DNA from: Candidatus Roizmanbacteria bacterium RIFCSPHIGHO2_02_FULL_37_13b
GTDB lineage: Bacteria; Patescibacteriota; Microgenomatia; UBA1406; HO2-37-13b
Direction: 5' to 3'
NCBI GenBank assembly: GCA_001789395.1
Contig: MFZK01000014.1
Coordinates: 113,130-167,761, forward strand
DNA: 54,632 nucleotides
Positions 17,070 to 52,001 of this stretch are shown piece after piece. The notes below the pieces were generated by a model, which did not search any database, was not told the origin of the DNA, and saw nothing but the letters and a program-made list of their open reading frames with translations. Position 1 is the stretch's first letter. The number at the start of each line of letters is the position of its first letter. The position numbers were made by a program, and so were the translations under genes.

Positions 17070-17084
17070 TTACATACATCCAGC

Positions 17085-17142
17085 GTCATTCCCGCGAAGG
17101 CGGGAATCTATTAGATAGTTTCCGCATCAAGTGCGGAATGAC
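17085..17142. repeat. 58-nt double-hairpin element with GTCATTCC / GGAATGAC termini (ORF-less member of the GTCAT...ATGAC family)
   Basis: GTC-ATTCCCGC-gaag-GCGGGAAT-C, an 11-nt spacer, then TTCCGCA-tcaag-TGCGGAA-TGAC. The outermost 8 nt are perfect reverse complements. It lies between lysJ and the amidotransferase-like gene. Confidence 0.6.
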
Positions 17143-17190: not shown

Positions 17191-17838
17191 ATGTGTAGAT
17201 TTTTAATGGTTAGATCAAAAAAACCAATTAAACTAGTGGAACTTCTTAGTGATTTTGCTTTTATGTGTAAAAAAAGTGTTGAATGGCAGGGAGATGGTTG
17301 GGGGATTAGTTGGAGGGTTGATAATGGAGGATGGCGGATGGAAAAATCATTAAAACCAATTTGGGACGATGTTAATATATTTGACGGAATTCCAGAATCC
17401 AATATTATTGTTGTTCATGCACGCGGAGCATCATTTCCAAAGCACAAAAACAATATTAATTATAATCAACCATATATTGATAGTGATATGTGTTTTGTTT
17501 TTAATGGTGAGCTTTATGGAGTCAGACTTTATGCAGAAGGACAAATAGGATCGCAAAAAATTTTTTCATTAATTAAAAAAAATTTAGATAAAAATAGTCC
17601 AATAAATACATTAAAAAAATTAAGAAACATGTTGATAAATAATTCATCAGGAATTTTAGGCTGTAACATCGGGCTTGTCATAAATGATAAATTTTATGCT
17701 TCTTGTTTTTACAGTAAAAATAAGGAATATTATACCCTCAGATATTTTTCCGATGATTCAGTTACTATCGTCTGTTCAGAAAAAATAAATAAATTCCTCT
17801 GGCGGAGTATGAAAAAAGGAGATATAATCCAAATATGA
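17191..17838 (+). CDS. class II glutamine amidotransferase-like Ntn hydrolase (YafJ/EgtC-type, COG0121-like)
   Basis: It starts MCRF, with Cys2 as the nucleophile after Met removal. DGWGISW and VHARGAS...FVFNGELYG match the stand-alone GATase-II pattern. Its stop overlaps the LysRS start (ATGA). Confidence 0.75.
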   Translation: MCRFLMVRSKKPIKLVELLSDFAFMCKKSVEWQGDGWGISWRVDNGGWRMEKSLKPIWDDVNIFDGIPESNIIVVHARGASFPKHKNNINYNQPYIDSDMCFVFNGELYGVRLYAEGQIGSQKIFSLIKKNLDKNSPINTLKKLRNMLINNSSGILGCNIGLVINDKFYASCFYSKNKEYYTLRYFSDDSVTIVCSEKINKFLWRSMKKGDIIQI

Positions 17839-20174
17839 TCTGGGTCGATAGGATGGTTGAAGAAATAAAAAAAAGAAATCTAGCAGTAGAATGGATAGAT
17901 GATATGAAGACTCCTTCAGGCAGAATTCATGTTGGTTCACTTCTTGGTGTTGTTTATCATGATCTTATTTATAAGGCATTAATTGAAAAAGGTATTAATG
18001 CAAGTTTCAGTTATGTATTTGAAGATCATGATCCGATGGATGGTATGCCGCCATTTTTAGACGCCAAAAAATGGGGAAAATATATGGGTATGCAGTTGTA
18101 TAAAATACCATCCCCGGAAAAAGGTTATAAAAACTTTGGGCAATATTTTGCTCTGGAATTCAAACATGTTTTTGAAAAAATTAACTGTCACCCACAAATA
18201 ATTTGGGCATCGGACTTGTATCTTTCCGGGAAGATGAATGATGCTGTAACAACGGCTTTGAATAATGCATCTACGATTAGAGAAATTTATCTGCGACATA
18301 CCAAAAGAAAGCTAGCCGATGATTGGTATCCTTTTAATGTTGTTTGTGAAAAATGCCAGAAGATTGGTACGACGAGAGTATTTAATTGGGATGGTGTACT
18401 GGTTCACTATCGATGTATGAAAGATTTGGTTTCTTGGGCTGTTGGATGTGGTTATGAAGGTAAAACTTCGCCATATGACGGGCGGGGGAAAATGCCATGG
18501 AAGGTCGAATGGCCAGCTAAGTGGAAAGTCATTGGCGTCACTGTTGAAGGCGCCGGTAAAGATCACATGTCTAAGGGGGGTTCACATGATATTTCATCAG
18601 ACATATCTCAACAAGTGTTTAAGTATTCTGTGCCATACTCTTTTATTTATGAATGGTTTACGATTGGTGGAAAAAAAATGTCATCATCTAAAGGAGTCGG
18701 ATCATCAGCAAAAGAAGTTTCAAAGATACTACCACCAGAGCTTTTACGTTTTTTAATTGTTCGAACTCCAGTTGAATCTCATCTGGATTTTAATCCCTAT
18801 GGGGACACAATTTTGAATTTATTTGATGAATATGACAGATGCATGAATGCATATTTTGCAAAAAAGGAAAATAAAATTCCCGAGGGAAAGGAAGGTGAAG
18901 TATTATTGGATTTTGCTAGGATTATTGAGCTGTCTGCTGTATCTTCATTGCCAAAAAAAAGAGTAATCTTACCAAGATTTAGAACTGTTGTTAATTTGAT
19001 AAAAAATGCCATAGGGATGGGTAATGACCTGTTTGTTCAAATATATAATGTTTACGAAAGGCAAAAAGGAGATAAATTGTCAACTGAAGAAAAAGAAATA
19101 TTAGATAAGAGAATAAAATACGCCAAAATATATTTAGAAAAATATGCGACACAATCATCGGGCGATTTAAAAATCGCCCCTACTGCAACATTATCTATGG
19201 TGCAAACGCAATTTTTGCAACAATTATCAGAAAAATTATCTGATAAATTAAAAACCAAAGATGAAATTCAAAATATTATCTTTGATATCCTCAAAAAAAA
19301 TAATTTGTCTCCGCGCGAAATTTTTAAACCTTTTTATCAAATATTAAACGGCAGAGATTTTGGTCCAAAAGCAGGAGAGTTAATATTGGAGATGGGGATA
19401 GGGGAGGCTAAAAGAAAGTTAATTGGCGCCTTAAATAACAAGAGTAATTCAAAATCAAATATTAAATTTGAATTTTCAAATCTTAATGATTCTTCAGTAT
19501 TCAGTATTGATCAATCAGTCAGTGAAAAGTTTCCGTCGATTTGTATTGGTATCGCAATAATTAAAAACGTAAAGATCGAAAAGACAAATGAAAAATTAAT
19601 GGCGGACATTAATAATTTTGTGGGTGAACAAAAAAACTTAACAAATGGAATCATCGGATCCTATCATGAAATACAAAGTTATCGGAAGTTATATAAGGCA
19701 ACTGGAATCGATTGGCATTCACGTCGGCCATCACCGGAAGCATTGTTACGACGAATAGCGTTAAATAAAGGAATTTATAGTGTTAACAATTGCGTGGATG
19801 CATACAATCTTGTAGTTATGAAATACCGAGTATCCTCTGGAGCATTTGATTTGAATAATATTAAATTACCAACGAAATTAAGATTAGCAACAGGAAACGA
19901 AAAAATTTTATTATTGGGTGATAAAGAAGGAATTAATTATAAACAAGGGGAGATTGCCTATTTCGATCAAATCGGTGGATATAATATTGATTTTAATTAT
20001 CGGGATAGCCAAAGAACTGCAGTAACAAATGAGACGAGAGATTTATTAATAAATGTTGATGGGATTTTTGATATTACCCGTGGGCAGGTAGAGAAAACAT
20101 TAAAAGAAACTATTGAAACTATAATTAAATACTGTGGGGGGAAGGTGGAGGTGGTTGGGATAGTTGAGGCCTAA
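17835..20174 (+). CDS. class I lysyl-tRNA synthetase with a C-terminal B3/4-like domain extension
   Basis: The class I LysRS signatures PSGRIHVGS (HIGH-like) and KMSSSKG (KMSKS) are present. About 235 extra C-terminal residues (NNCVDAYNLVVMKYRVSSGAFDLNNI...NYRDSQRTAVTNETRDLL) resemble the PheRS-beta B3/4 domain and COG3382 proteins. Confidence 0.88.
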   Translation: MIWVDRMVEEIKKRNLAVEWIDDMKTPSGRIHVGSLLGVVYHDLIYKALIEKGINASFSYVFEDHDPMDGMPPFLDAKKWGKYMGMQLYKIPSPEKGYKNFGQYFALEFKHVFEKINCHPQIIWASDLYLSGKMNDAVTTALNNASTIREIYLRHTKRKLADDWYPFNVVCEKCQKIGTTRVFNWDGVLVHYRCMKDLVSWAVGCGYEGKTSPYDGRGKMPWKVEWPAKWKVIGVTVEGAGKDHMSKGGSHDISSDISQQVFKYSVPYSFIYEWFTIGGKKMSSSKGVGSSAKEVSKILPPELLRFLIVRTPVESHLDFNPYGDTILNLFDEYDRCMNAYFAKKENKIPEGKEGEVLLDFARIIELSAVSSLPKKRVILPRFRTVVNLIKNAIGMGNDLFVQIYNVYERQKGDKLSTEEKEILDKRIKYAKIYLEKYATQSSGDLKIAPTATLSMVQTQFLQQLSEKLSDKLKTKDEIQNIIFDILKKNNLSPREIFKPFYQILNGRDFGPKAGELILEMGIGEAKRKLIGALNNKSNSKSNIKFEFSNLNDSSVFSIDQSVSEKFPSICIGIAIIKNVKIEKTNEKLMADINNFVGEQKNLTNGIIGSYHEIQSYRKLYKATGIDWHSRRPSPEALLRRIALNKGIYSVNNCVDAYNLVVMKYRVSSGAFDLNNIKLPTKLRLATGNEKILLLGDKEGINYKQGEIAYFDQIGGYNIDFNYRDSQRTAVTNETRDLLINVDGIFDITRGQVEKTLKETIETIIKYCGGKVEVVGIVEA

Positions 20175-20192
20175 TAATATATTTTTTCTAAT

Positions 20193-20226
20193 GTCATTCT
20201 GGTAAGCCGAAGGCGCATCCAGAATC
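20193..20226. repeat. left hairpin module (GTC-ATTCTGG ... CCAGAAT-C)
   Basis: The 7-bp outer stem ATTCTGG/CCAGAAT encloses taaGCCgaaGGCgcat. Confidence 0.6.
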
Positions 20227-20237
20227 ATAAATTACTG

Positions 20238-20534
20238 ATGAAAAAAGGTTTTGTCTACATCTTGGCAAATAATCGACCAACTTTATATACTGGGGTAACA
20301 AATAATATCGCAAAGCGCGTTTTTGAACATAAATCTGGAAGAGGATCAATGTTTACAAAACGATACGCGATTCACAAATTAGTATACTATAAATATTTAG
20401 AAGATATTAAGAGTGCAATTATTAGAGAAAAACAAATAAAGGATCTGAATCGCAACGAAAAAATTAACTTAATTAAATTAATGAATCCGTCTTTTAAAGA
20501 TTTGTTCGTAGAGGTGAGAGATAAATTTCGATAG
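20238..20534 (+). CDS. GIY-YIG nuclease family protein (small YhbQ/UPF0213-like)
   Basis: 98 aa. It has GFVYIL...LYTGVTNNIAKRVFEHKSG (GIY...YIG, Arg, Glu) and a later REKQIK...N segment. Confidence 0.85.
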   Translation: MKKGFVYILANNRPTLYTGVTNNIAKRVFEHKSGRGSMFTKRYAIHKLVYYKYLEDIKSAIIREKQIKDLNRNEKINLIKLMNPSFKDLFVEVRDKFR

Positions 20535-20540
20535 ACATCG

Positions 20541-20581
20541 ATTCTGGAGTCTACCGCCTTCGGCGGGATCCCCAGAATGAC
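20541..20581. repeat. right hairpin module (ATTCTGG ... CCAGAAT-GAC)
   Basis: The outer stem ATTCTGG/CCAGAAT encloses the inner hairpin CCGCC-ttc-GGCGG. Confidence 0.6.
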
Positions 20582-20589
20582 TGATGTTT

Positions 20590-20683
20590 GTCATGCTGAC
20601 TTGTCCAGTATCGGAAAGGTATGATTTTAATGTTGTTGATTCTGGACGCGTCCCGCGTCAAATGCGGGACTTGCCAGAACGAC
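20590..20683. repeat. degenerate tandem copy of the double-hairpin element
   Basis: GTCATGCTGACTTGTCCAGTATC is a decayed version of the hairpin at 34047-34071. After a 25-nt spacer comes ATTCTGG-acgc-GTCCCGC-gtcaaat-GCGGGAC-ttg-CCAGAAC-GAC. Confidence 0.45.
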
Positions 20684-29895: not shown

Positions 29896-32805
29896 ATGAA
29901 AAAAAATATATCTTTTTCTGTAACCGGAATGCACTGTGAATCTTGTGAACTGTTGATTAAAGATGAATTAACATCAATATCAGGAGTCACTAATGCTATT
30001 GTGGATCATAAAACTGGACAAGGATCAGTAATTATTGATGATGAAAAAGTTAATCATAATGATATTATTGGTGCAATTACAAGAGCTGGATACACAGGAG
30101 TAATTAACAACATTGAAGATACACAAATTGAAAAAGATACCGTAGAGTTAGTCAAAAAAGATGCTAAATCGGGGGATCCTATGCGTGTACTTTTTCAAGC
30201 ACATATGACAGCAGATGGAGAGGTTACGGAAAATGAAAATGGGAAGTTATCTTTCCAAGGGAAAGTCGACAATAAAAAAAAAGTAGAGGTTGTTATTCCG
30301 AAAGGAAAAGAAGTTGAAGCTGAAGATTACATCCATCGCTTTGTGAAGTCTCAAAACTTTATTCACCTTTTAGATGGAGTTAATGGTTCTCATGAAGAAT
30401 CTGTGCAAACACAACAAATTCTTTCTCCTATGCAAAATACTCCGGAAATGAAAAATTCAAATGGATCAAAGCGAGTTAGTTTGTCACTTTCAGGTATGCA
30501 TTGCACCTCTTGTGCTCTCATTATCGAGAAATCACTTAACAAGGTATCGGGAGTGAAGGAAGCACGTGTCAATTTTACTGCTGAAAAAGCATTAATAGAT
30601 TACGATGAATCTATTATAAAAGTAGAAGTACTTGTTGAAGCCGTTAAAAAAACAGGATATTCAGCTACCGTGCTAAATGATAAAAATACTGAGTATGAAG
30701 CAAAGAAAAGAAAGCAAGAGACTGAAGCTTTATATACTAAATTTATAGTAGGTTTACTCTTTAGTCTCCCGATGATATATTTTATGCTATTTGATTTTTT
30801 CTCATGGATTCCGGGAAGAGTCTCTTTTCTTCCCTTTGTTGGAATCATTTCCCTTATCCTAACAACTCCGGTCCAATTTATCATTGGTCGCGGGTTTTAT
30901 AAAGGAATGTGGTCTGCACTTCGTATGAATACGTTTAATATGGACAGTCTCATAGCAATTGGGACATCTGTAGCATATTTTTATAGTTTAATAAATTATA
31001 TTTTTTATTATCTAAATACTAACTCACTCATAGGTATAGGAGGAGAAAAAATACCTGAGCTATATTTTGAAACAGCAGCATATCTTATTACCTTTGTGAT
31101 TTTGGGTAAGTGGTTAGAGGCGCAAGCCAAGGGACGTACATCAGACGCAATAAAAAAACTAATGGGTTTACAAGCGAAAACAGCTCGCGTTATTCGAAAC
31201 GGCATAACTACTGATATCTCCATTGATCAGGTGATAAATGGAGATATCATTCTTGTTCGACCAGGTGAAAAAGTCCCGGTTGATGGAGTGATTATAAAAG
31301 GATTTTCTGCAGTTGATGAATCCATGATTACCGGTGAGAGTTTGCCTGTTGAGAAGCAGGTCTCAGATACCGTAGTCGGAGGGACCATGAATAAAATGGG
31401 AAGTTTTGAATTTAATGTAACTCGAGTTGGAGCAGAGACATTTCTTTCGCAAATTATCCGACTTGTTGAAGAAGCGCAAGGATCTAAAGCTCCTATTCAG
31501 GATTTCGCCGACAAGATTTCCGCATATTTCGTTCCGACTGTTATCGGGATCGCCGTTCTGACATTTATTATTTGGTATTTTGTGCTAGGAGCTACTCTAA
31601 GCTTTGCTCTGATGGCCTTTACTGCGGTTATTGTTATTGCCTGTCCGTGCGCATTGGGCTTGGCTACTCCAACAGCAATTATGGTTGGGACGGGAAAAGG
31701 AGCGGAATATGGGATTTTAGTTAAAGGAGGGGAACCTCTTGAGGCAGCGTGTAAAATCAATGCGATTATTTTTGACAAAACAGGAACATTAACCAATGGA
31801 AAACCTATTGTTACTGATATTGAAAGCGTAAGAGATATGGATGAGGATGAAGTATTAACTATTGCTGCATCTTTGGAGAAACAATCAGAACATTCTCTTG
31901 CTGAAGCTATTTATAATGAAGCTGAAAAGGAAAAAATTTCCCTGAAGGATGTCGAAGAATTTAAAGCATTTGCCGGACACGGAGTGAGCGGGAATATCGA
32001 TGCGACGACATACTATTTTGGTAACAGAAAACTAATAGGTGATATTGTTGGGTTGCCGGTTGAAAAAATTAATAGAAAAATGAATCGGATTGAAGAGCAA
32101 GGTAAAACAGTGATGATTCTTGCCAATAAAAATGAAATACTGGGACTTATCGGAGTTGCCGATACCGTCAAGGACACATCAAAAGAAGCAGTGGAGAGGT
32201 TAAAAAAAATGGGTATCAGCGTGTATATGATTACCGGTGATAATGAAAAAACAGCAAAAGCAATTGCCTCTCAAGTCGGGATCGAAAATGTTTTCGCTGA
32301 AGTATTGCCCGAAGAAAAAGCGATAAATATCAAATTGCTGCAGGAAAAGAAAATGAAAGTTGCAATGGTTGGAGACGGTATTAATGATGCGCCGGCTCTT
32401 GCCCAAGCAGATTTGGGGATTGCCATGGGATCAGGGACTGATGTAGCTATGGAAGCTGGTGGTATTGTCATCATAAAGAATGATTTAAGAGATGTCGCAG
32501 ATGCTATCGATCTATCAAAAACAACGATGAATAAGATAAAGCAAAATATGTTCTTTGCTCTATTTTATAACATTATGGGTATTCCTGTTGCTGCACGTAT
32601 GTTTGCCGGAATTGGTATTATATTAAAACCAGAGCTTGCCGGATTGGCTATGGCGCTGAGTTCCGTATCTGTGGTGGGTAATTCATTATTATTACGAAAC
32701 TATAGTCCGGGTAAAAAAAACTATTTATCTGCCATTGCACCAATTGTAATGGCCGTAGCTTTCGCTATTATCTTTTTTCAATTCGCTAAGTTTAGTGCGA
32801 TGTGA
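29896..32805 (+). CDS. copA: copper-translocating P1B-type ATPase
   Basis: Has two HMA domains ([16 protein letters not shown]), TM CPC motif ([11 protein letters not shown]), DKTGTLT, TGES and GDGINDAP. Confidence 0.95.
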
Positions 32806-34046: not shown

Positions 34047-34104
34047 GTCATGCTGAACTTGTTTCAGCATCTAAAATGAGATCCTGAAATAAATTCAGGA
34101 TGAC
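34047..34104. repeat. 58-nt double-hairpin element with GTCAT...ATGAC termini, between eno and apgM
   Basis: GTC-ATGCTGAA-cttgt-TTCAGCAT-C, a 9-nt spacer, then ATCCTGAA-ataaa-TTCAGGAT-GAC. Its length and architecture are identical to 17085-17142, but the stem sequences differ. Confidence 0.6.
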
Positions 34105-38206: not shown

Positions 38207-39283
38207 ATGGAAATCATTAAATTAAATAAGAAAAAAATTAGTGAGGCAGTTGACCAAACAATTAATGTATTAAAGAAAGGAGGATTGGTTGTTGTTCCCA
38301 CCGATACTGTATATGGATTAGCTGTTGATGCAGAAAATGAGGCTGCGATTGCAAAACTAATACAATTTAAATCGCGTCCGGCGGGTAAGGCAATTTCTAT
38401 TTTTGTTGCCTCGCTTCATGATGCAAAGCGGTATGTCGTGATTGATAGTAAAAATGAATCAATATTAAAGGAGATTTTTCCGGGCCCTTTTACAGCAATA
38501 TTAAATTCTAAACACAAGTCCTCTCGTCAACTGGAATCTGATTTTGAATCACTGGGTATAAGGATTCCTGATAACCTTTTTATTAATGAATTACTAGTCA
38601 AGTATGGACGTCCTATTACTGCAACTTCTGCAAATCTATCAGGTGGGCCAATTGTATATTCAGTTGATAATCTATTTAGACAAATTTCAAGAAAAAAAAG
38701 AGACCTAATCGATTTGGTAGTGAATTATGGTAAATTACCTTACCACAAACCTTCAACGGTCATAGATTTAACTGGTGACAAATTAACAATGTTACGTTTA
38801 GGTGATAATCAGCTGCTGAATAAAAAGAGTTACATATCCGCTAGCGAAGCGGAAACAAAAAAAATCGCCTCGGAATTTATCAAAAAATATGACAAAAATA
38901 ATCAAAGACGAGCACTGGCTATAATCTTACAAGGAGAATTAGGGTCTGGAAAGACTCAGTTTGTAAAAGGTATCGGAGCACATTTTGGAATAAAAGATAT
39001 TATTTCACCCTCGTTTGTTGTTTATTATGAATATAATATTCCAAGGCAATCTCGGAGACGTTTATATCATGTTGACCTTTATAATATATCCGAAAAAAAC
39101 GAGTTTGCATATTTGGGATTTGAAGAGATGCTTAAACCCCGTAATATCATTTGTATAGAATGGGGAGAAAAAAGCGCTCCGATTTATAACATTCTTAAAG
39201 ATAAATCAATTATTGTCCACGTGAAGATAAAATATAGTAATGAGAATAGGCGGCAGATAGAAATTAGCATTAATAATTTATGA
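38207..39283 (+). CDS. fusion of TsaC/Sua5-type threonylcarbamoyl-AMP synthase (YrdC domain) with TsaE ATPase
   Basis: The N-terminal half has VVVPTDTVYGLA, ATSANLSGGP and PSTVIDLTG. The C-terminal half has the TsaE P-loop GELGSGKTQFVKGI, SPSFVV, HVDLYN and IEWGEK. Confidence 0.85.
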   Translation: MEIIKLNKKKISEAVDQTINVLKKGGLVVVPTDTVYGLAVDAENEAAIAKLIQFKSRPAGKAISIFVASLHDAKRYVVIDSKNESILKEIFPGPFTAILNSKHKSSRQLESDFESLGIRIPDNLFINELLVKYGRPITATSANLSGGPIVYSVDNLFRQISRKKRDLIDLVVNYGKLPYHKPSTVIDLTGDKLTMLRLGDNQLLNKKSYISASEAETKKIASEFIKKYDKNNQRRALAIILQGELGSGKTQFVKGIGAHFGIKDIISPSFVVYYEYNIPRQSRRRLYHVDLYNISEKNEFAYLGFEEMLKPRNIICIEWGEKSAPIYNILKDKSIIVHVKIKYSNENRRQIEISINNL

Positions 39284-50717: not shown

Positions 50718-52001
50718 ATGAGAAAGGGGTTTTATATCGTCATATTAGTCTTTTTATCGATAATAACCATTTTTTTTCAATTCAATAAAATACCGGTCAA
50801 TATCGATCGTGACGAAATTGCGTTTGTGAGATTGGCACGGTCTCTAAACAATAAATCTTATCGGATTTATACACCTCAAGAAACAGGCCACAGTACTTTA
50901 TATTTTTATCTTCTATTAACTTCGTTTAAATTATTCGGCTTGAATTTATGGGCATTGAGAATACCTGCGGCAATATTTGGTGTTTTAAATGGGCTTTTCA
51001 TCTATCTAATCTTTGACTTGGTATTCCGTGAAAAAATTAAATTTAAATTCAGAAGGCTAATATTTTTGATGCCTGTCGGTTTCATTCTGGCATTGATTTT
51101 TATCACTTTGAGATGGCAATTTAACTTTGCCAGGTTCGCATATGAGGCGACGTTTCTATTGTTTTTAGAACTCGGCTCAATTTATTGCTTGATACGGGCG
51201 TTAAAGAAACAGAATATATTATTTGTATTAATATGTGGGATATTTGCCGGATTAGCATTTAACTCATACACTCCGGGTCGAATATTTTTTCTATTACCTT
51301 TAATTATTTTATTTATAGATAAAAAGACAAGAATATTAATTTTTTATTATGCTTTAGCCTGTTTGCCCTTTATTATCCCTCTGGTAATTGCATTGATCCA
51401 TAATCCTGAACCCCGTGTAGTTGATGAACTAATCCTTTTAGACAGAAACCTGGATTTTATTGGTAAATCAGTGATTTTGTTACAAAACATCACCAAAAAT
51501 ATCTTTATGATATTTGTAATCGGTGACATGAATGGACGGCATAACTATCCCGGTAAGCCGGCATTAAATCCAATTTTGAGCCTATTCTTAATCGCTGGGT
51601 ATTTATTTAGTCTAAAGGAGAAAAAAAATATTTATTGGAAAATGTTCAGCATATATTTTCTTTTATCATTGATTCCGACGCTTTTTACTCTCCCGAAAGG
51701 TAATCCTAACATGTTACGTACTTATACTCTAATTCCATCGATAATTTATTTTATTGGGATTGCTTTGAATAAGATATCGTCTTCTATGTCATTCTGGCAA
51801 GTCGAGTTGAAGACGAGGCGCGTCCAGAATCTTATTGTAATTTGTTTCTTTCTATTGCTTTCTGTATCTTCTTTTTACGAACTGCGCACCTATTTCAAAT
51901 TTCAAAAAGAAGTGACTAAGTATTCTTTTGAAGTTAGAAAAAGTTTTGAATGGTTAAAAGAAAGAAATTTTGAGTTAGTTGATACTTGGTATAAATATTA
52001 A
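50718..52001 (+). CDS. polytopic membrane glycosyltransferase, GT39/ArnT/PMT-like
   Basis: 427 aa with about 10 TM helices. An acidic DRDE motif follows TM1, as in GT-C enzymes. The family call is tentative. Confidence 0.6.
   Translation: MRKGFYIVILVFLSIITIFFQFNKIPVNIDRDEIAFVRLARSLNNKSYRIYTPQETGHSTLYFYLLLTSFKLFGLNLWALRIPAAIFGVLNGLFIYLIFDLVFREKIKFKFRRLIFLMPVGFILALIFITLRWQFNFARFAYEATFLLFLELGSIYCLIRALKKQNILFVLICGIFAGLAFNSYTPGRIFFLLPLIILFIDKKTRILIFYYALACLPFIIPLVIALIHNPEPRVVDELILLDRNLDFIGKSVILLQNITKNIFMIFVIGDMNGRHNYPGKPALNPILSLFLIAGYLFSLKEKKNIYWKMFSIYFLLSLIPTLFTLPKGNPNMLRTYTLIPSIIYFIGIALNKISSSMSFWQVELKTRRVQNLIVICFFLLLSVSSFYELRTYFKFQKEVTKYSFEVRKSFEWLKERNFELVDTWYKY
51788..51831. repeat. solo GTCATTCTGG...CCAGAATC hairpin module lying in frame inside the GT39-like CDS
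   Basis: It has the same 10-nt 5' terminus and the same 7-bp stem ATTCTGG/CCAGAAT as the left end of the GIY-YIG unit at 20193-20226. It is translated as MSFWQVELKTRRVQNL in a loop between hydrophobic helices. Confidence 0.55.

What the first reader, a model, noticed from the sequence alone, without database searches (positions are those of the whole stretch)
20193..20581. GIY-YIG nuclease gene bracketed by hairpin modules with perfect 10-bp terminal inverted repeats: candidate autonomous member of a hairpin-element family
Seen directly:
- The left end is GTCATTCTGG (20193-20202)...CCAGAATC (20219-20226), followed after 11 nt by the 98-aa GIY-YIG ORF (20238-20534).
- 5 nt after the stop comes GATTCTGG (20540-20547)...CCAGAATGAC (20572-20581).
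- The outermost 10 nt are exact reverse complements.
- Each end is itself a stem-loop using the same ATTCTGG/CCAGAAT arms around a GC-rich inner hairpin.
- The same termini (GTCAT...ATGAC) and the same two-hairpin layout recur without an ORF at 17085-17142 and 34047-34104, degenerately at 20590-20683, and as a solo hairpin inside a CDS at 51788-51831.

This looks like a transposon and its MITE-like derivatives, with a small YhbQ-like GIY-YIG nuclease in the position of the mobilising enzyme.

Established precedents exist. REP elements are mobilised by RAYT transposases, and GIY-YIG domains drive homing endonuclease mobility. I am not aware of a described class in which a minimal GIY-YIG ORF sits between hairpin TIRs and has miniature derivatives.
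Basis: partly seen in the sequence, partly recalled or inferred. Interest (0 to 1): 0.75.

Follow-up and report, generated by a model that had tools for sequence, protein, structure and literature searches.

The report
Ssn nuclease gene with hairpin repeats
The small GIY-YIG gene bracketed by hairpins is real, but it belongs to the Ssn nuclease / hairpin-repeat system described in Neisseria in 2025, here in a candidate-phylum (Roizmanbacteria-like) genome with a repeat variant that the published search motif misses.

Summary
A 98-aa GIY-YIG ORF (20238-20534) sits between an upstream hairpin GTCATTCTGG..CCAGAATC and the same unit inverted downstream. ORF-less doublets, a decayed doublet and one intragenic copy lie elsewhere in the window (6 strict units against 0.15 expected by chance).

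The system is not new. Chenal et al. 2025 (PMC11893778) described the Ssn family: about 94-aa single-domain GIY-YIG nucleases that bind such hairpins (NTS/SRM) only as single-stranded DNA and cut a few nt 5' of the GTC tag. Their genes are typically flanked by the repeats. The repeats themselves are the CGTC-tagged REPs of Di Nocera 2013.

- The window protein is homologous to the gonococcal ssnA region (42% identity, tblastn E 4e-13) and keeps the catalytic Tyr/Tyr/Glu.
- Window 17084-17111 matches the Neisseria NTS consensus with one mismatch.
- In 80 homologous loci from many phyla, 69 have the upstream unit and 64 have both under a permissive rule.

The transposon/MITE reading is only partly supported. 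Gain and loss of the cassette are visible (Azospirillum sufB-sufC; Roizmanbacteria relatives lack both gene and repeats). However, there are no target duplications and no recent copies, and the cassette keeps its place upstream of rdgB/serS in distant relatives. Modest additions: a variant repeat class the published motif misses (3 of 397 units) and a tight TIR-like layout.

The parts
20193..20226 (+). Left Ssn-related hairpin unit, forward orientation. Preceded by T (TGTC tag). Stem ATTCTGG/CCAGAAT, inner hairpin GCC-GAA-GGC, closing C.
   Evidence: ssDNA fold -6.5 kcal/mol, z -3.5. The same unit type lies upstream of 69/80 homologous genes.
20238..20534 (+). ssn gene: 98-aa single-domain GIY-YIG nuclease of the Ssn family. 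Y7, Y17 and E64 correspond to the catalytic Y6, Y17 and E64 of N. meningitidis SsnA.
   Evidence: Pfam PF01541 E 6.4e-13. 42% identity and E 1e-23 to the translated N. gonorrhoeae ssnA region; tblastn E 4e-13. Y17 and E64 invariant, Y7 in at least 90%, among 26 homologues. AF2 model pLDDT 91. Best PDB folds are UPF0213 1zg2 and Slx1.
20540..20581 (-). Right Ssn-related hairpin unit, inverted orientation. Bottom strand reads GTCATTCTGG GGATCC CGCCGAAGGCGG TAGACT CCAGAATC. Same outer stem as the left unit, different inner part.
   Evidence: ssDNA fold -10.5 kcal/mol. An inverted unit lies downstream of the stop in 35/77 (strict) to 64/80 (permissive) homologous loci.
20590..20612 (+). Decayed forward unit GTCATGCTGACTTGTCCAGTATC. 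The stem no longer pairs well. First half of a degenerate doublet abutting the cassette.
   Evidence: The fold is not better than shuffles (z -0.9).
20638..20683 (-). Decayed inverted unit. Stem TTCTGG/CCAGAA and the inner hairpin are intact, but the tag is mutated (GTCGT instead of GTCAT).
   Evidence: ssDNA fold -12.5 kcal/mol, z -2.9.
17084..17111 (+). Forward unit CGTCATTCCCGCGAAGGCGGGAATCTAT. It matches the Neisseria NTS consensus with 1 mismatch and is the only window match to the published SRM degenerate motif. First half of an ORF-less doublet between the class-III aminotransferase and the GATase-like gene.
   Evidence: NTS 1 mismatch; SRM regex 1 hit against 0.05 in shuffles. Fold -8.9 kcal/mol.
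17118..17142 (-). Inverted partner of the doublet (GTCATTCCGCACTTGATGCGGAAAC on the bottom strand).
   Evidence: Fold -7.8 kcal/mol, z -6.0.
34047..34071 (+). Forward unit with stem ATGCTGAA/TTCAGCAT. First half of an ORF-less doublet between the phosphoglycerate mutase and enolase genes.
34080..34104 (-). Inverted partner with stem ATCCTGAA/TTCAGGAT.
51788..51831 (+). Solo forward unit with the same ATTCTGG stem as the cassette. It is read through in frame inside the PMT_2-family glycosyltransferase CDS (50718-52001) and encodes SFWQVELKTRRVQN in a loop between two hydrophobic segments.
   Evidence: The loop is length-variable; the window's version is the longest, tied with one other, among 18 homologues.

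Best explanation
The locus is an ssn gene with its cognate hairpin repeats, a member of the Ssn / Ssn-related-motif (SRM) system of Chenal et al. 2025.

Shown for homologues, inferred here:
- The 98-aa protein is a monomeric, single-domain GIY-YIG endonuclease.
- It recognises the repeat only when the DNA is single-stranded and folded into the hairpin.
- The palindrome sequence and the C just 3' of it give binding. The GTC just 5' of it is needed for cutting.
- The Mg-dependent cut falls a few nt 5' of the tag, in the variable flank.
- The loop is tolerant of extensions. That fits the nested G+C hairpins in the window's units.

In the window the two units flanking the gene point outward. The predicted cuts are therefore just outside 20192 on the top strand and just outside 20582 on the bottom strand (inference). 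The solo unit at 51788 and the decayed unit at 20638-20683 carry the same ATTCTGG stem and are probable substrates. The doublets at 17085 and 34047 carry other stems. They are probably cognate to other ssn paralogues or are relics (inference).

The likely cellular role is processing of ssDNA that carries the repeats: incoming transforming DNA, as shown in Neisseria, or replication and repair intermediates. The cassette behaves as a long-resident, largely vertically inherited gene of mobile-element ancestry, analogous to a domesticated RAYT with its REPINs. How the repeats multiply is unknown.
For: Published biochemistry and genomics of the family come from PMC11893778.

Homology and protein features:
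- tblastn against the N. gonorrhoeae ssnA region gives E 4e-13 with 90% coverage.
- BLASTP gives 42% identity, E 1e-23.
- All 80 fetched homologues also hit it, at 37-53% identity.
- Y17 and E64 are invariant, and Y7 is present in at least 90%, among 26 homologues.
- The protein is a single GIY-YIG domain of 98 aa. The AF2 model is confident and its nearest folds are UPF0213 and Slx1.

Repeats:
- The consensus YGTCATTCYGG...CCRGAATC keeps exactly the positions found critical by mutagenesis: GTC and the closing C are fixed by the search, the A of the stem is 100%, and the base before the tag is Y in 90%.
- Window 17084-17111 equals the NTS consensus with 1 mismatch.

Association of gene and repeats:
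- 69/80 loci have the upstream unit; 33/77 have both under the strict rule and 64/80 under the permissive rule.
- Unit density is 397 in 655 kb, against 35 in one shuffle.
- There are 0 units in 106 kb of other Patescibacteria contigs.
- There is no ssn and no convincing unit (two one-mismatch chance-like matches only) in 37 kb from the four closest Roizmanbacteria loci.

Residency:
- All 18 contigs carrying the protein show the same locus; the 6 fetched match the window apart from one substitution.
- The order LysRS-ssn-rdgB-serS-secA recurs in L021, and ssn-serS-secA recurs in L029, L049 and L060.
- The stem type follows the host lineage.
Against: - No enzyme from this clade has been assayed.
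- Identity to the neisserial protein is 42%, below the strict 60% cut-off used in part of the published survey.
- The units flanking the gene do not match the published SRM degenerate motif. Only 3 of 397 units in the 80 loci do.
- Assignment to CDD cd10448 could not be run.
- The nearest units around ssnA in N. gonorrhoeae and A. lipoferum are arranged (-, gene, +), the opposite of the window. The published cut geometry may therefore have a different consequence here.
- A role in transformation is untested in this host.
Confidence: 0.85

Rival explanations
1. Active autonomous transposon with MITE-like derivatives. The GIY-YIG nuclease excises or copies the hairpin-bounded unit. ORF-less doublets are non-autonomous derivatives that it mobilises today in this genome.
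For: - The layout is IS-like, with outward-facing tagged hairpins at both ends in 64/80 loci.
- (+,-) doublets are the commonest dimer.
- Decayed copies and an intragenic copy exist.
- Genomic neighbourhoods are diverse: 149 neighbouring ORFs fall into 122 clusters.
- The whole doublet-ssn-doublet block is present between sufB and sufC in A. lipoferum 4B and absent in relatives whose flanks are 95-98% identical.
- The doublet is absent from the orthologous lysJ-GATase spacer of L114.
- The published paper raises the same hypothesis.
Against: - No target-site duplications were found around 57 doublets or 64 cassettes.
- No two recent copies of the gene were seen: one locus only on all 18 contigs, and paralogues within one MAG are 72% identical.
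- The position is conserved upstream of rdgB/serS across deep divergence.
- The two ends of a cassette often differ in inner sequence, and in 21/64 cases in the stem.
- The window's doublets have other stems than the cassette.
- The predicted cuts are on opposite strands.
- GIY-YIG nucleases hydrolyse DNA and are not known to rejoin it (established knowledge).
- No homologue was found on viral contigs.
Confidence: 0.2
2. Homing-type spread. The repeats (doublets) pre-exist and multiply by another route. The ssn gene is a selfish nuclease gene that cuts ORF-less doublets. It is then copied into them by break repair that uses the two hairpins as homology arms.
For: - The gene sits exactly between the two tails of a (+,-) doublet. 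Median gaps are about 10 nt upstream and 0-5 nt downstream, and the stop codon often overlaps the right unit.
- ORF-less doublets with 0-2 nt between the tails are common.
- GIY-YIG domains drive homing elsewhere (established knowledge).
Against: - Published Ssn enzymes do not cut dsDNA. They cut 5' of the tag, at the outer side of a doublet, not at its centre.
- The homology arms would be only 23-45 nt.
- The protein lacks the DNA-binding extension of homing enzymes. TIGR01453 scores 17.7 against a cut-off of 56.
- In A. lipoferum and N. gonorrhoeae the gene lies between doublets, not inside one.
- The empty Azospirillum sites contain no doublet.
Confidence: 0.07
3. The hairpins are ordinary RNA-level elements (terminators, mRNA stabilisers or translational regulators), and the nuclease gene is a housekeeping UPF0213/YhbQ-type repair gene that merely has such elements at its ends.
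For: - The units lie in intergenic spacers at gene ends.
- The left unit sits 11 nt from the start codon and could affect translation.
- REP-like elements are known to affect mRNA stability (PMC3733652).
Against: - Sequence, not just structure, is conserved across phyla: GTC tag, ATTCYGG stem, closing C.
- No T-run follows the hairpins.
- No Rfam family matches.
- The units occur in both orientations as head-to-head doublets and inside a CDS.
- Published SsnA does not bind RNA.
- UPF0213 proteins are only distant relatives (E 6e-7).
- Relatives lacking ssn lack the hairpins at the same sites.
Confidence: 0.03

Closest known systems
Ssn nucleases with NTS/SRM repeats (SsnA of Neisseria meningitidis; Chenal et al., Nat Commun 2025, PMC11893778)
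   Same: - A single-domain GIY-YIG protein of about 94-98 aa with the same catalytic Tyr, Tyr and Glu.
- Significant homology (42% identity, E 1e-23).
- The gene is flanked by oriented hairpin repeats built as YGTC tag + palindrome starting with AT + closing C.
- One window unit equals the NTS consensus with 1 mismatch.
- Repeats also occur as clusters and doublets elsewhere.
- The fraction of loci with repeats on both sides (43% strict) is close to the published 42%.
   Different: - The host is a Roizmanbacteria-like Patescibacterium, a group not mentioned in the paper.
- The cognate stem is ATTCTGG, often with a nested G+C hairpin (units up to 61 nt). This class escapes the published SRM degenerate motif (3/397 units).
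- The gene lies tightly inside one (+,-) doublet with the tags outward. In N. gonorrhoeae and A. lipoferum the nearest units are (-, gene, +).
- Activity and biological role are untested here.
CGTC-tagged REP superfamily (Di Nocera et al., BMC Genomics 2013, PMC3733652), including Neisseria dRS3 and Rickettsia RPE-4/RPE-6
   Same: - An unpaired CGTC/TGTC tag at one end.
- A stem starting with complementary A-T residues.
- Mostly inverted dimers and occasional intragenic units.
- Wide phylogenetic spread.
   Different: - That survey found no dedicated enzyme. Here, as in the 2025 paper, the repeats are tied to a GIY-YIG gene.
- Loops of 4-5 nt were the rule there. Many units here carry 14-40 nt inner hairpins.
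- Patescibacteria and Nitrospirota were not among the 5 phyla listed there.
REP/REPIN with RAYT (TnpA-REP) and the IS200/IS605 family
   Same: It works like them in outline:
- a small enzyme gene flanked by inverted, tagged hairpins that are recognised as ssDNA;
- many ORF-less inverted doublets;
- no target-site duplication;
- the enzyme gene is single or low copy and largely vertically inherited.
   Different: - The enzyme is a hydrolytic GIY-YIG nuclease, not an HUH/Y1 transposase that forms a covalent intermediate and rejoins DNA.
- The tag is YGTC, not GTAG.
- Transposition has not been shown.
GIY-YIG homing endonucleases (I-TevI type)
   Same: A GIY-YIG catalytic domain and association with selfish-looking DNA.
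   Different: - There is no C-terminal DNA-binding domain.
- The gene is not in an intron or a phage.
- TIGR01453 scores 17.7, far below its cut-off of 56.
- Published relatives cut ssDNA only.
UPF0213 / YhbQ-type small GIY-YIG proteins (PDB 1zg2, 1ywl) and Slx1
   Same: The same minimal GIY-YIG fold. They are the best sequence and fold matches among solved structures.
   Different: - They are only distant relatives (E 6e-7, 28% identity; Foldseek E 1.5e-4).
- Slx1 is a structure-specific nuclease that needs Slx4.
- None is known to be tied to a genomic repeat.

Membership tests
Ssn nuclease family (cd10448; Chenal et al. 2025) | Single-domain GIY-YIG protein of roughly 90-100 aa | tested here: met
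   98 aa. PF01541 covers residues 3-77, E 6.4e-13. The AF2 model shows one compact domain, pLDDT 91.
Ssn nuclease family (cd10448; Chenal et al. 2025) | Homology to neisserial SsnA (paper's criterion: E < 1e-10 over > 75% of the length) | tested here: met
   Tested against the N. gonorrhoeae ssnA region. tblastn gives E 4e-13 with 90% of the query covered, in a 7.3-Gb database. BLASTP gives 42% identity, E 1e-23. The paper's stricter 60% identity cut-off is not met.
Ssn nuclease family (cd10448; Chenal et al. 2025) | Catalytic residues equivalent to Y6, Y17 and E64 of SsnA | tested here: met
   Y7, Y17 and E64 align with them. Y17 and E64 are invariant, and Y7 is present in at least 90%, among 26 homologues.
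Ssn nuclease family (cd10448; Chenal et al. 2025) | Top CDD assignment to cd10448 (GIY-YIG_unchar_3) | not testable with these tools
   No CDD/rpsblast is available. NCBIfam has no specific model.
Ssn nuclease family (cd10448; Chenal et al. 2025) | Gene flanked by Ssn-related hairpin motifs | tested here: met
   A forward unit ends 11 nt upstream and an inverted unit starts 5 nt downstream. The same holds in 69/80 and 35/77 homologous loci. Caveat: the flanking units do not fit the literal published degenerate motif. Only 17084-17111 does.
Ssn nuclease family (cd10448; Chenal et al. 2025) | Site-specific cleavage of ssDNA only, a few nt 5' of the motif | not testable with these tools
   This needs purified protein and oligonucleotide assays.
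CGTC-tagged REP superfamily (Di Nocera et al. 2013) | Unpaired CGTC (or TGTC) tag at one end of a short palindrome whose stem starts with complementary A-T | tested here: met
   Window units have CGTC at 17084 and TGTC at 20192, 34046 and 51787. Across 319 units the base before GTC is C in 42% and T in 48%; the stem starts AT in 97%.
CGTC-tagged REP superfamily (Di Nocera et al. 2013) | Stems of 8-9 bp, loops of 4-5 nt | tested here: inconclusive
   Met by the doublets at 17085 and 34047 (8-bp stems, loops of 4-5 nt). Not met by the gene-flanking and intragenic units, whose 7-bp outer stems enclose 16-30 nt.
CGTC-tagged REP superfamily (Di Nocera et al. 2013) | Mostly organised as inverted dimers; high copy number per genome | tested here: inconclusive
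   Inverted pairs predominate: +- 57 and -+ 33, against ++ 13 and -- 13. Genome-wide copy number cannot be counted from a 54.6-kb window (6 strict units).
REP/REPIN-RAYT and IS200/IS605 | HUH (Y1) tyrosine transposase; GTAG-tagged or subterminal hairpins | tested here: not met
   The only ORF between the hairpins is a GIY-YIG domain, and the tag is YGTC. This is a functional analogy only.
GIY-YIG homing endonucleases | GIY-YIG domain joined to a DNA-binding domain; NCBIfam TIGR01453 | tested here: not met
   The protein is 98 aa with no extra domain. TIGR01453 scores 17.7 bits against a cut-off of 56.05.
UPF0213 / YhbQ subfamily | Close sequence similarity to BH0048, EF2693 or YhbQ | tested here: not met
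   Only E 6e-7 and 0.0024 to 1zg2 and 1ywl, far weaker than to Ssn homologues (E 1e-23 to 1e-36).

The most novel reading that the evidence does not exclude
The SRM-ssn-SRM cassette is, or recently was, a distinct class of single-strand-DNA mobile element. In it a hydrolytic GIY-YIG nuclease, rather than an HUH transposase, drives the spread of CGTC-tagged hairpin repeats by cutting at the hairpin foot and leaving the copying to host replication or repair. That would supply the 'missing enzyme' for the CGTC REP superfamily (dRS3, RPE and others). It would also explain the outward-tagged, TIR-like layout seen in 64 of 80 loci and the block-wise gain or loss seen in Azospirillum.
Probability: 0.3. 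Interest if true: 0.75.

Novelty: new member of a known kind. Interest (0 to 1): 0.3.

Why it matters
The window adds no new principle. The enzyme family, its hairpin targets, their co-location and the analogy to IS and REP-RAYT systems were published in 2025.

What this analysis adds is limited but usable:
1. The system is abundant in Patescibacteria and in Nitrospirota, Acidobacteriota, Planctomycetota and Ignavibacteria. There it uses a repeat class (YGTCATTCYGG - short loop or nested hairpin - CCRGAATC) that the published search motif misses almost entirely. Published association figures are therefore probably underestimates.
2. In this clade the gene sits tightly inside one inverted doublet with the tags outward. 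This geometry puts the predicted cuts just outside both ends, and it differs from Neisseria.
3. There is evidence of two kinds on mobility: block-wise presence or absence between close Azospirillum species, and long positional conservation in Roizmanbacteria-like genomes.
4. Natural nested-hairpin loops match the enzyme's reported tolerance for loop extensions. That is relevant to its proposed use as a programmable ssDNA cutter.

Tried and rejected
- Rfam scan of the window: only three tRNAs, nothing at the hairpins.
- NCBIfam: no specific family for the protein.
- PDB by sequence and by fold: no Ssn structure, only UPF0213 and Slx1.
- Look-up of the exact protein: 18 contigs, all the same locus; the 6 fetched match the window apart from one substitution. 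This gave no strain-level polymorphism.
- Metagenome scan anchored on SerRS: the best hit was 56% identical and synteny was lost, so it was useless for empty-site comparison.
- Viral contig scan with the Ssn alignment: no homologue.
- Search for a second ssn copy or pseudogene in the window: none. The weak tblastn hit at 29950 lies in a P-type ATPase and is noise.
- Target-site duplication test: at chance level.
- Intragenic unit as an insertion: it lies in a length-variable loop of the glycosyltransferase. The window's loop is the longest, tied with one other, among 18 homologues. The closest homologues are only 7-8 residues shorter and no close relative exists, so the test is inconclusive.
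- Idea that the doublets are internal-deletion derivatives of this cassette: rejected. Their stems differ and their spacers (9-11 nt) show no remnant of the ORF.
- Supplementary files of the 2025 paper (for the SsnA sequence) are not held. The gonococcal chromosome mislabelled as a plasmid in PLSDB was used instead.
Full report
**1. The observation**

- GTCATTCTGG (20193-20202) pairs with CCAGAATC (20219-20226) around a small G+C hairpin.
- Eleven nt later a 98-aa ORF starts (20238-20534).
- Five nt after its stop come GATTCTGG (20540-20547) and CCAGAATGAC (20572-20581).
- The outer 10 nt are exact reverse complements.

The ORF is a GIY-YIG domain (PF01541, E 6.4e-13). As single-stranded DNA both ends fold into the proposed two-level stem-loops.

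The further copies are also present:
- doublets without an ORF at 17085-17142 and 34047-34104;
- a decayed doublet at 20590-20683, 8 nt from the cassette;
- a solo unit at 51788-51831 inside a CDS.

With a strict definition the window holds 6 units, against 0.15 expected and at most 2 in 300 dinucleotide shuffles. The one correction is that the doublets share only the frame GTC-AT...AT-C with the cassette. Their stems are different.

**2. Generality**

The protein has about 950 relatives in the large protein database, most of them around 95-100 aa and many from Patescibacteria. I fetched 80 loci encoding 50-65% identical proteins from one-genome-per-species contigs. They come from Roizman-, Gottesman-, Levy-, Curtiss- and Daviesbacteria, Saccharibacteria, Nitrospirota, Ignavibacteria, Acidobacteriota, Planctomycetota (including Brocadia), Omnitrophota and others.

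Reading their flanks shows the same picture almost everywhere.
- 69/80 have a forward unit ending within 100 nt of the start codon, with a median gap of about 10 nt.
- 35/77 have an inverted unit within 100 nt of the stop, often overlapping the stop codon.
- 33/77 have both. With a more permissive rule 64/80 have both.
- Units are about 11-fold enriched in these loci (397 against 35 in a shuffle).
- The consensus is YGTCATTCYGG ... CCRGAATC.
- The inner part is either a 5-nt loop (23-nt unit) or a nested G+C hairpin (units up to 61 nt).
- The stem variant follows the host. ATTCTGG occurs in Patescibacteria; ATTCCGG occurs in Nitrospirota, Acidobacteriota and Planctomycetota.

**3. What it is**

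The literature search settled the identity.

Di Nocera et al. 2013 (PMC3733652) defined a superfamily of 'CGTC-tagged' REPs. Its features are:
- an unpaired CGTC or TGTC tag;
- a stem beginning with complementary A-T;
- mostly inverted dimers and some intragenic units.

Neisseria dRS3 and Rickettsia RPE-4/6 are members. The authors stressed that no dedicated transposase was associated.

Chenal et al. 2025 (PMC11893778) then found the partner.
- The oriented form of dRS3 is the NTS, CGTCATTCCCGCGMAVGCGGGAATCYRG. It and related 'SRM' motifs flank a 94-aa single-domain GIY-YIG gene, ssnA, in many phyla: 71% of homologues have at least one motif and 42% have motifs on both sides.
- Purified SsnA binds the hairpin only as ssDNA and cuts a few nt 5' of it. 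It ignores the complementary strand, dsDNA and RNA.
- Y6, Y17 and E64 are required for cutting.
- The C just after the palindrome is the key base for binding. The three bases before the palindrome are key for cutting.
- Changing the stem sequence while keeping the structure abolishes activity.
- The loop can be removed or extended.
- In N. meningitidis the enzyme lowers transformation by NTS-containing DNA.
- Their Discussion notes that NTS-ssnA-NTS looks like an insertion sequence and compares it with IS200/IS605 and REP/RAYT, as a hypothesis.
- A 2026 preprint already uses SsnA-associated repeats as a benchmark class.

**4. Membership tests**

PLSDB contains a gonococcal chromosome labelled as a plasmid, which gave the neisserial gene.
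- The window protein matches it with tblastn E 4e-13 over 90% of its length. BLASTP gives 42% identity, E 1e-23.
- All 80 fetched homologues match it too.
- Y7, Y17 and E64 of the window protein align with the catalytic residues. Y17 and E64 are invariant and Y7 nearly so in the family alignment.
- Window 17084-17111 (CGTCATTCCCGCGAAGGCGGGAATCTAT) fits the NTS consensus with one mismatch, which is the paper's own search tolerance. It is the only window match to the published SRM degenerate motif.
- The positions that are conserved in the units here (GTC, the palindrome, the closing C) are those the mutagenesis found critical.
- The predicted structure is a confident minimal GIY-YIG fold. Its nearest solved folds are UPF0213 and Slx1. 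UPF0213/YhbQ-type proteins are only distant in sequence.
- CDD assignment and enzymology could not be done.

I therefore file the locus as a member of the Ssn/SRM system.

**5. Differences from the published description**

- The published SRM motif matches only 3 of 397 units in the 80 loci and none of the units flanking the window gene. The ATTCYGG class, with or without nested hairpins, is effectively a variant repeat class that the published search motif misses.
- In this clade the gene lies tightly inside one (+,-) doublet with the tags facing outward. By the published cut geometry, that places the cuts just outside each end, on opposite strands.
- In N. gonorrhoeae and A. lipoferum the nearest units are (-, gene, +), because the gene lies between doublets. 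N. aromaticivorans pNL2 has the (+, gene, -) form with yet another stem.
- The paper does not mention Patescibacteria.

**6. Is it a transposon with MITEs?**

Evidence in favour:
- the layout;
- the predominance of (+,-) doublets (57 of 116 adjacent pairs);
- the decayed copies and the intragenic copy;
- the very diverse neighbourhoods;
- real presence/absence differences.

The presence/absence differences are of two kinds.
- In A. lipoferum 4B a doublet-ssn-doublet block of about 530 nt lies between sufB and sufC. In A. ramasamyi, A. oryzae, strain B510 and A. brasilense the flanks are 90-98% identical, but the spacers I read (A. ramasamyi, B510 and A. brasilense) are short, about 90-130 nt in the first two, and hold no repeat.
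- The closest available relatives of the window organism are Roizmanbacteria with LysRS 59-61% identical. They have neither ssn nor convincing units (two one-mismatch chance-like matches only) in 37 kb around LysRS. The orthologous lysJ-GATase spacer in one of them is 27 nt, against 121 nt with a doublet in the window. A further 106 kb from other Patescibacteria contigs has no unit.

Evidence against:
- There are no target-site duplications.
- The gene is found at one locus only on all 18 public contigs that carry it; the 6 fetched match the window apart from one substitution.
- Paralogues within a MAG are 72% identical.
- The order LysRS-ssn-rdgB-serS-secA recurs in a genome whose LysRS is 41% identical. 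ssn-serS-secA recurs in three more.
- The two ends of a cassette often differ.
- The window's doublets have stems that, by the published specificity, this enzyme may not recognise.
- No homologue was found on viral contigs.
- GIY-YIG chemistry offers cutting but no rejoining.

The balance is this. The cassette and the repeats are gained and lost on evolutionary time scales and probably descend from a mobile element. In this lineage the gene behaves as a resident, RAYT-like gene. Active transposition is unproven.

**7. The intragenic unit**

The unit at 51788-51831 is read through in frame. It encodes SFWQVELKTRRVQN in a loop between two hydrophobic segments of a PMT_2-family glycosyltransferase. 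In an alignment with 17 homologues this loop is length-variable and the window's version is the longest, tied with one other. This is compatible with an insertion of the RPE kind described for CGTC repeats, but it is not proven.

**8. Verdict**

- The system is already described (2025).
- This is a new member from a candidate phylum, with a repeat variant and a tighter layout than the type example.

Noticed in passing
window 17084-17111: A Roizmanbacteria-like genome carries a hairpin that differs by one base from the Neisseria NTS consensus. The gene-flanking units in the same window use a different stem. This suggests more than one repeat class, and perhaps more than one ssn paralogue, in this genome.
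   Followed up: partly
L106 (Azospirillum lipoferum 4B plasmid AZO_p3, NC_016623.1 255121-256181), compared with L108, L109 and L110: A doublet-ssn-doublet block sits between sufB and sufC. Closely related Azospirillum species have a short sufB-sufC spacer with no repeat and no gene. The boundaries are not clean and no target duplication is visible.
   Followed up: yes
L105 (Planktothrix agardhii plasmid p1, NZ_LR882964.1 18447-19513): An Ssn homologue (54% identical) lies between an MmeI-type restriction-modification gene and DISARM drmA. It is surrounded by arrays of GTCATTCTGAG-type units, so it sits inside a defence island.
   Followed up: no
L104 (NZ_CP119142.1, 1880219-1883485): This PLSDB 'plasmid' is a 2.17-Mb N. 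gonorrhoeae chromosome with almost no annotation. The ssnA reading frame there has no in-frame ATG: the nearby ATG is out of frame and runs into a stop after 10 codons. The start may be non-canonical, or the gene may be damaged in this strain.
   Followed up: partly
L067 5001-5264 and L073 5001-5270: The Gracilibacteria homologue (L067) has an in-frame stop that is not TGA and is probably a pseudogene. The Berkelbacteria homologue (L073) has a TGA exactly where Gly is expected (NS*TLY against NGTLY). This would read through under genetic code 25.
   Followed up: partly
L001, L012, L014, L016-L020, L022, L029-L032, L060, L063, L066, L070 (record titles): Many MAGs titled 'uncultured Gammaproteobacteria' or 'Pseudomonadales' carry the Patescibacteria-type ATTCTGG units and Patescibacteria-like gene order (for example ssn-serS-secA in L029 and L060). 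One is a 915-kb complete chromosome (L019). The taxonomic labels look unreliable.
   Followed up: no
L001-L080, downstream of the ssn stop codon: In 10 of 36 loci the last base of the stop codon is the first G of the inverted unit (GATTCYGG). The ORF therefore fills the space between the two hairpins completely.
   Followed up: partly
window 17835-20174: The class I lysyl-tRNA synthetase is fused to a C-terminal B3_4 domain (779 aa). The architecture is shared by the Roizmanbacteria homologues. One homologue (P0271) is 1077 aa long.
   Followed up: no
window 38207-39283: A single 358-aa ORF combines Sua5/YrdC (TsaC) and TsaE domains of the t6A pathway.
   Followed up: no
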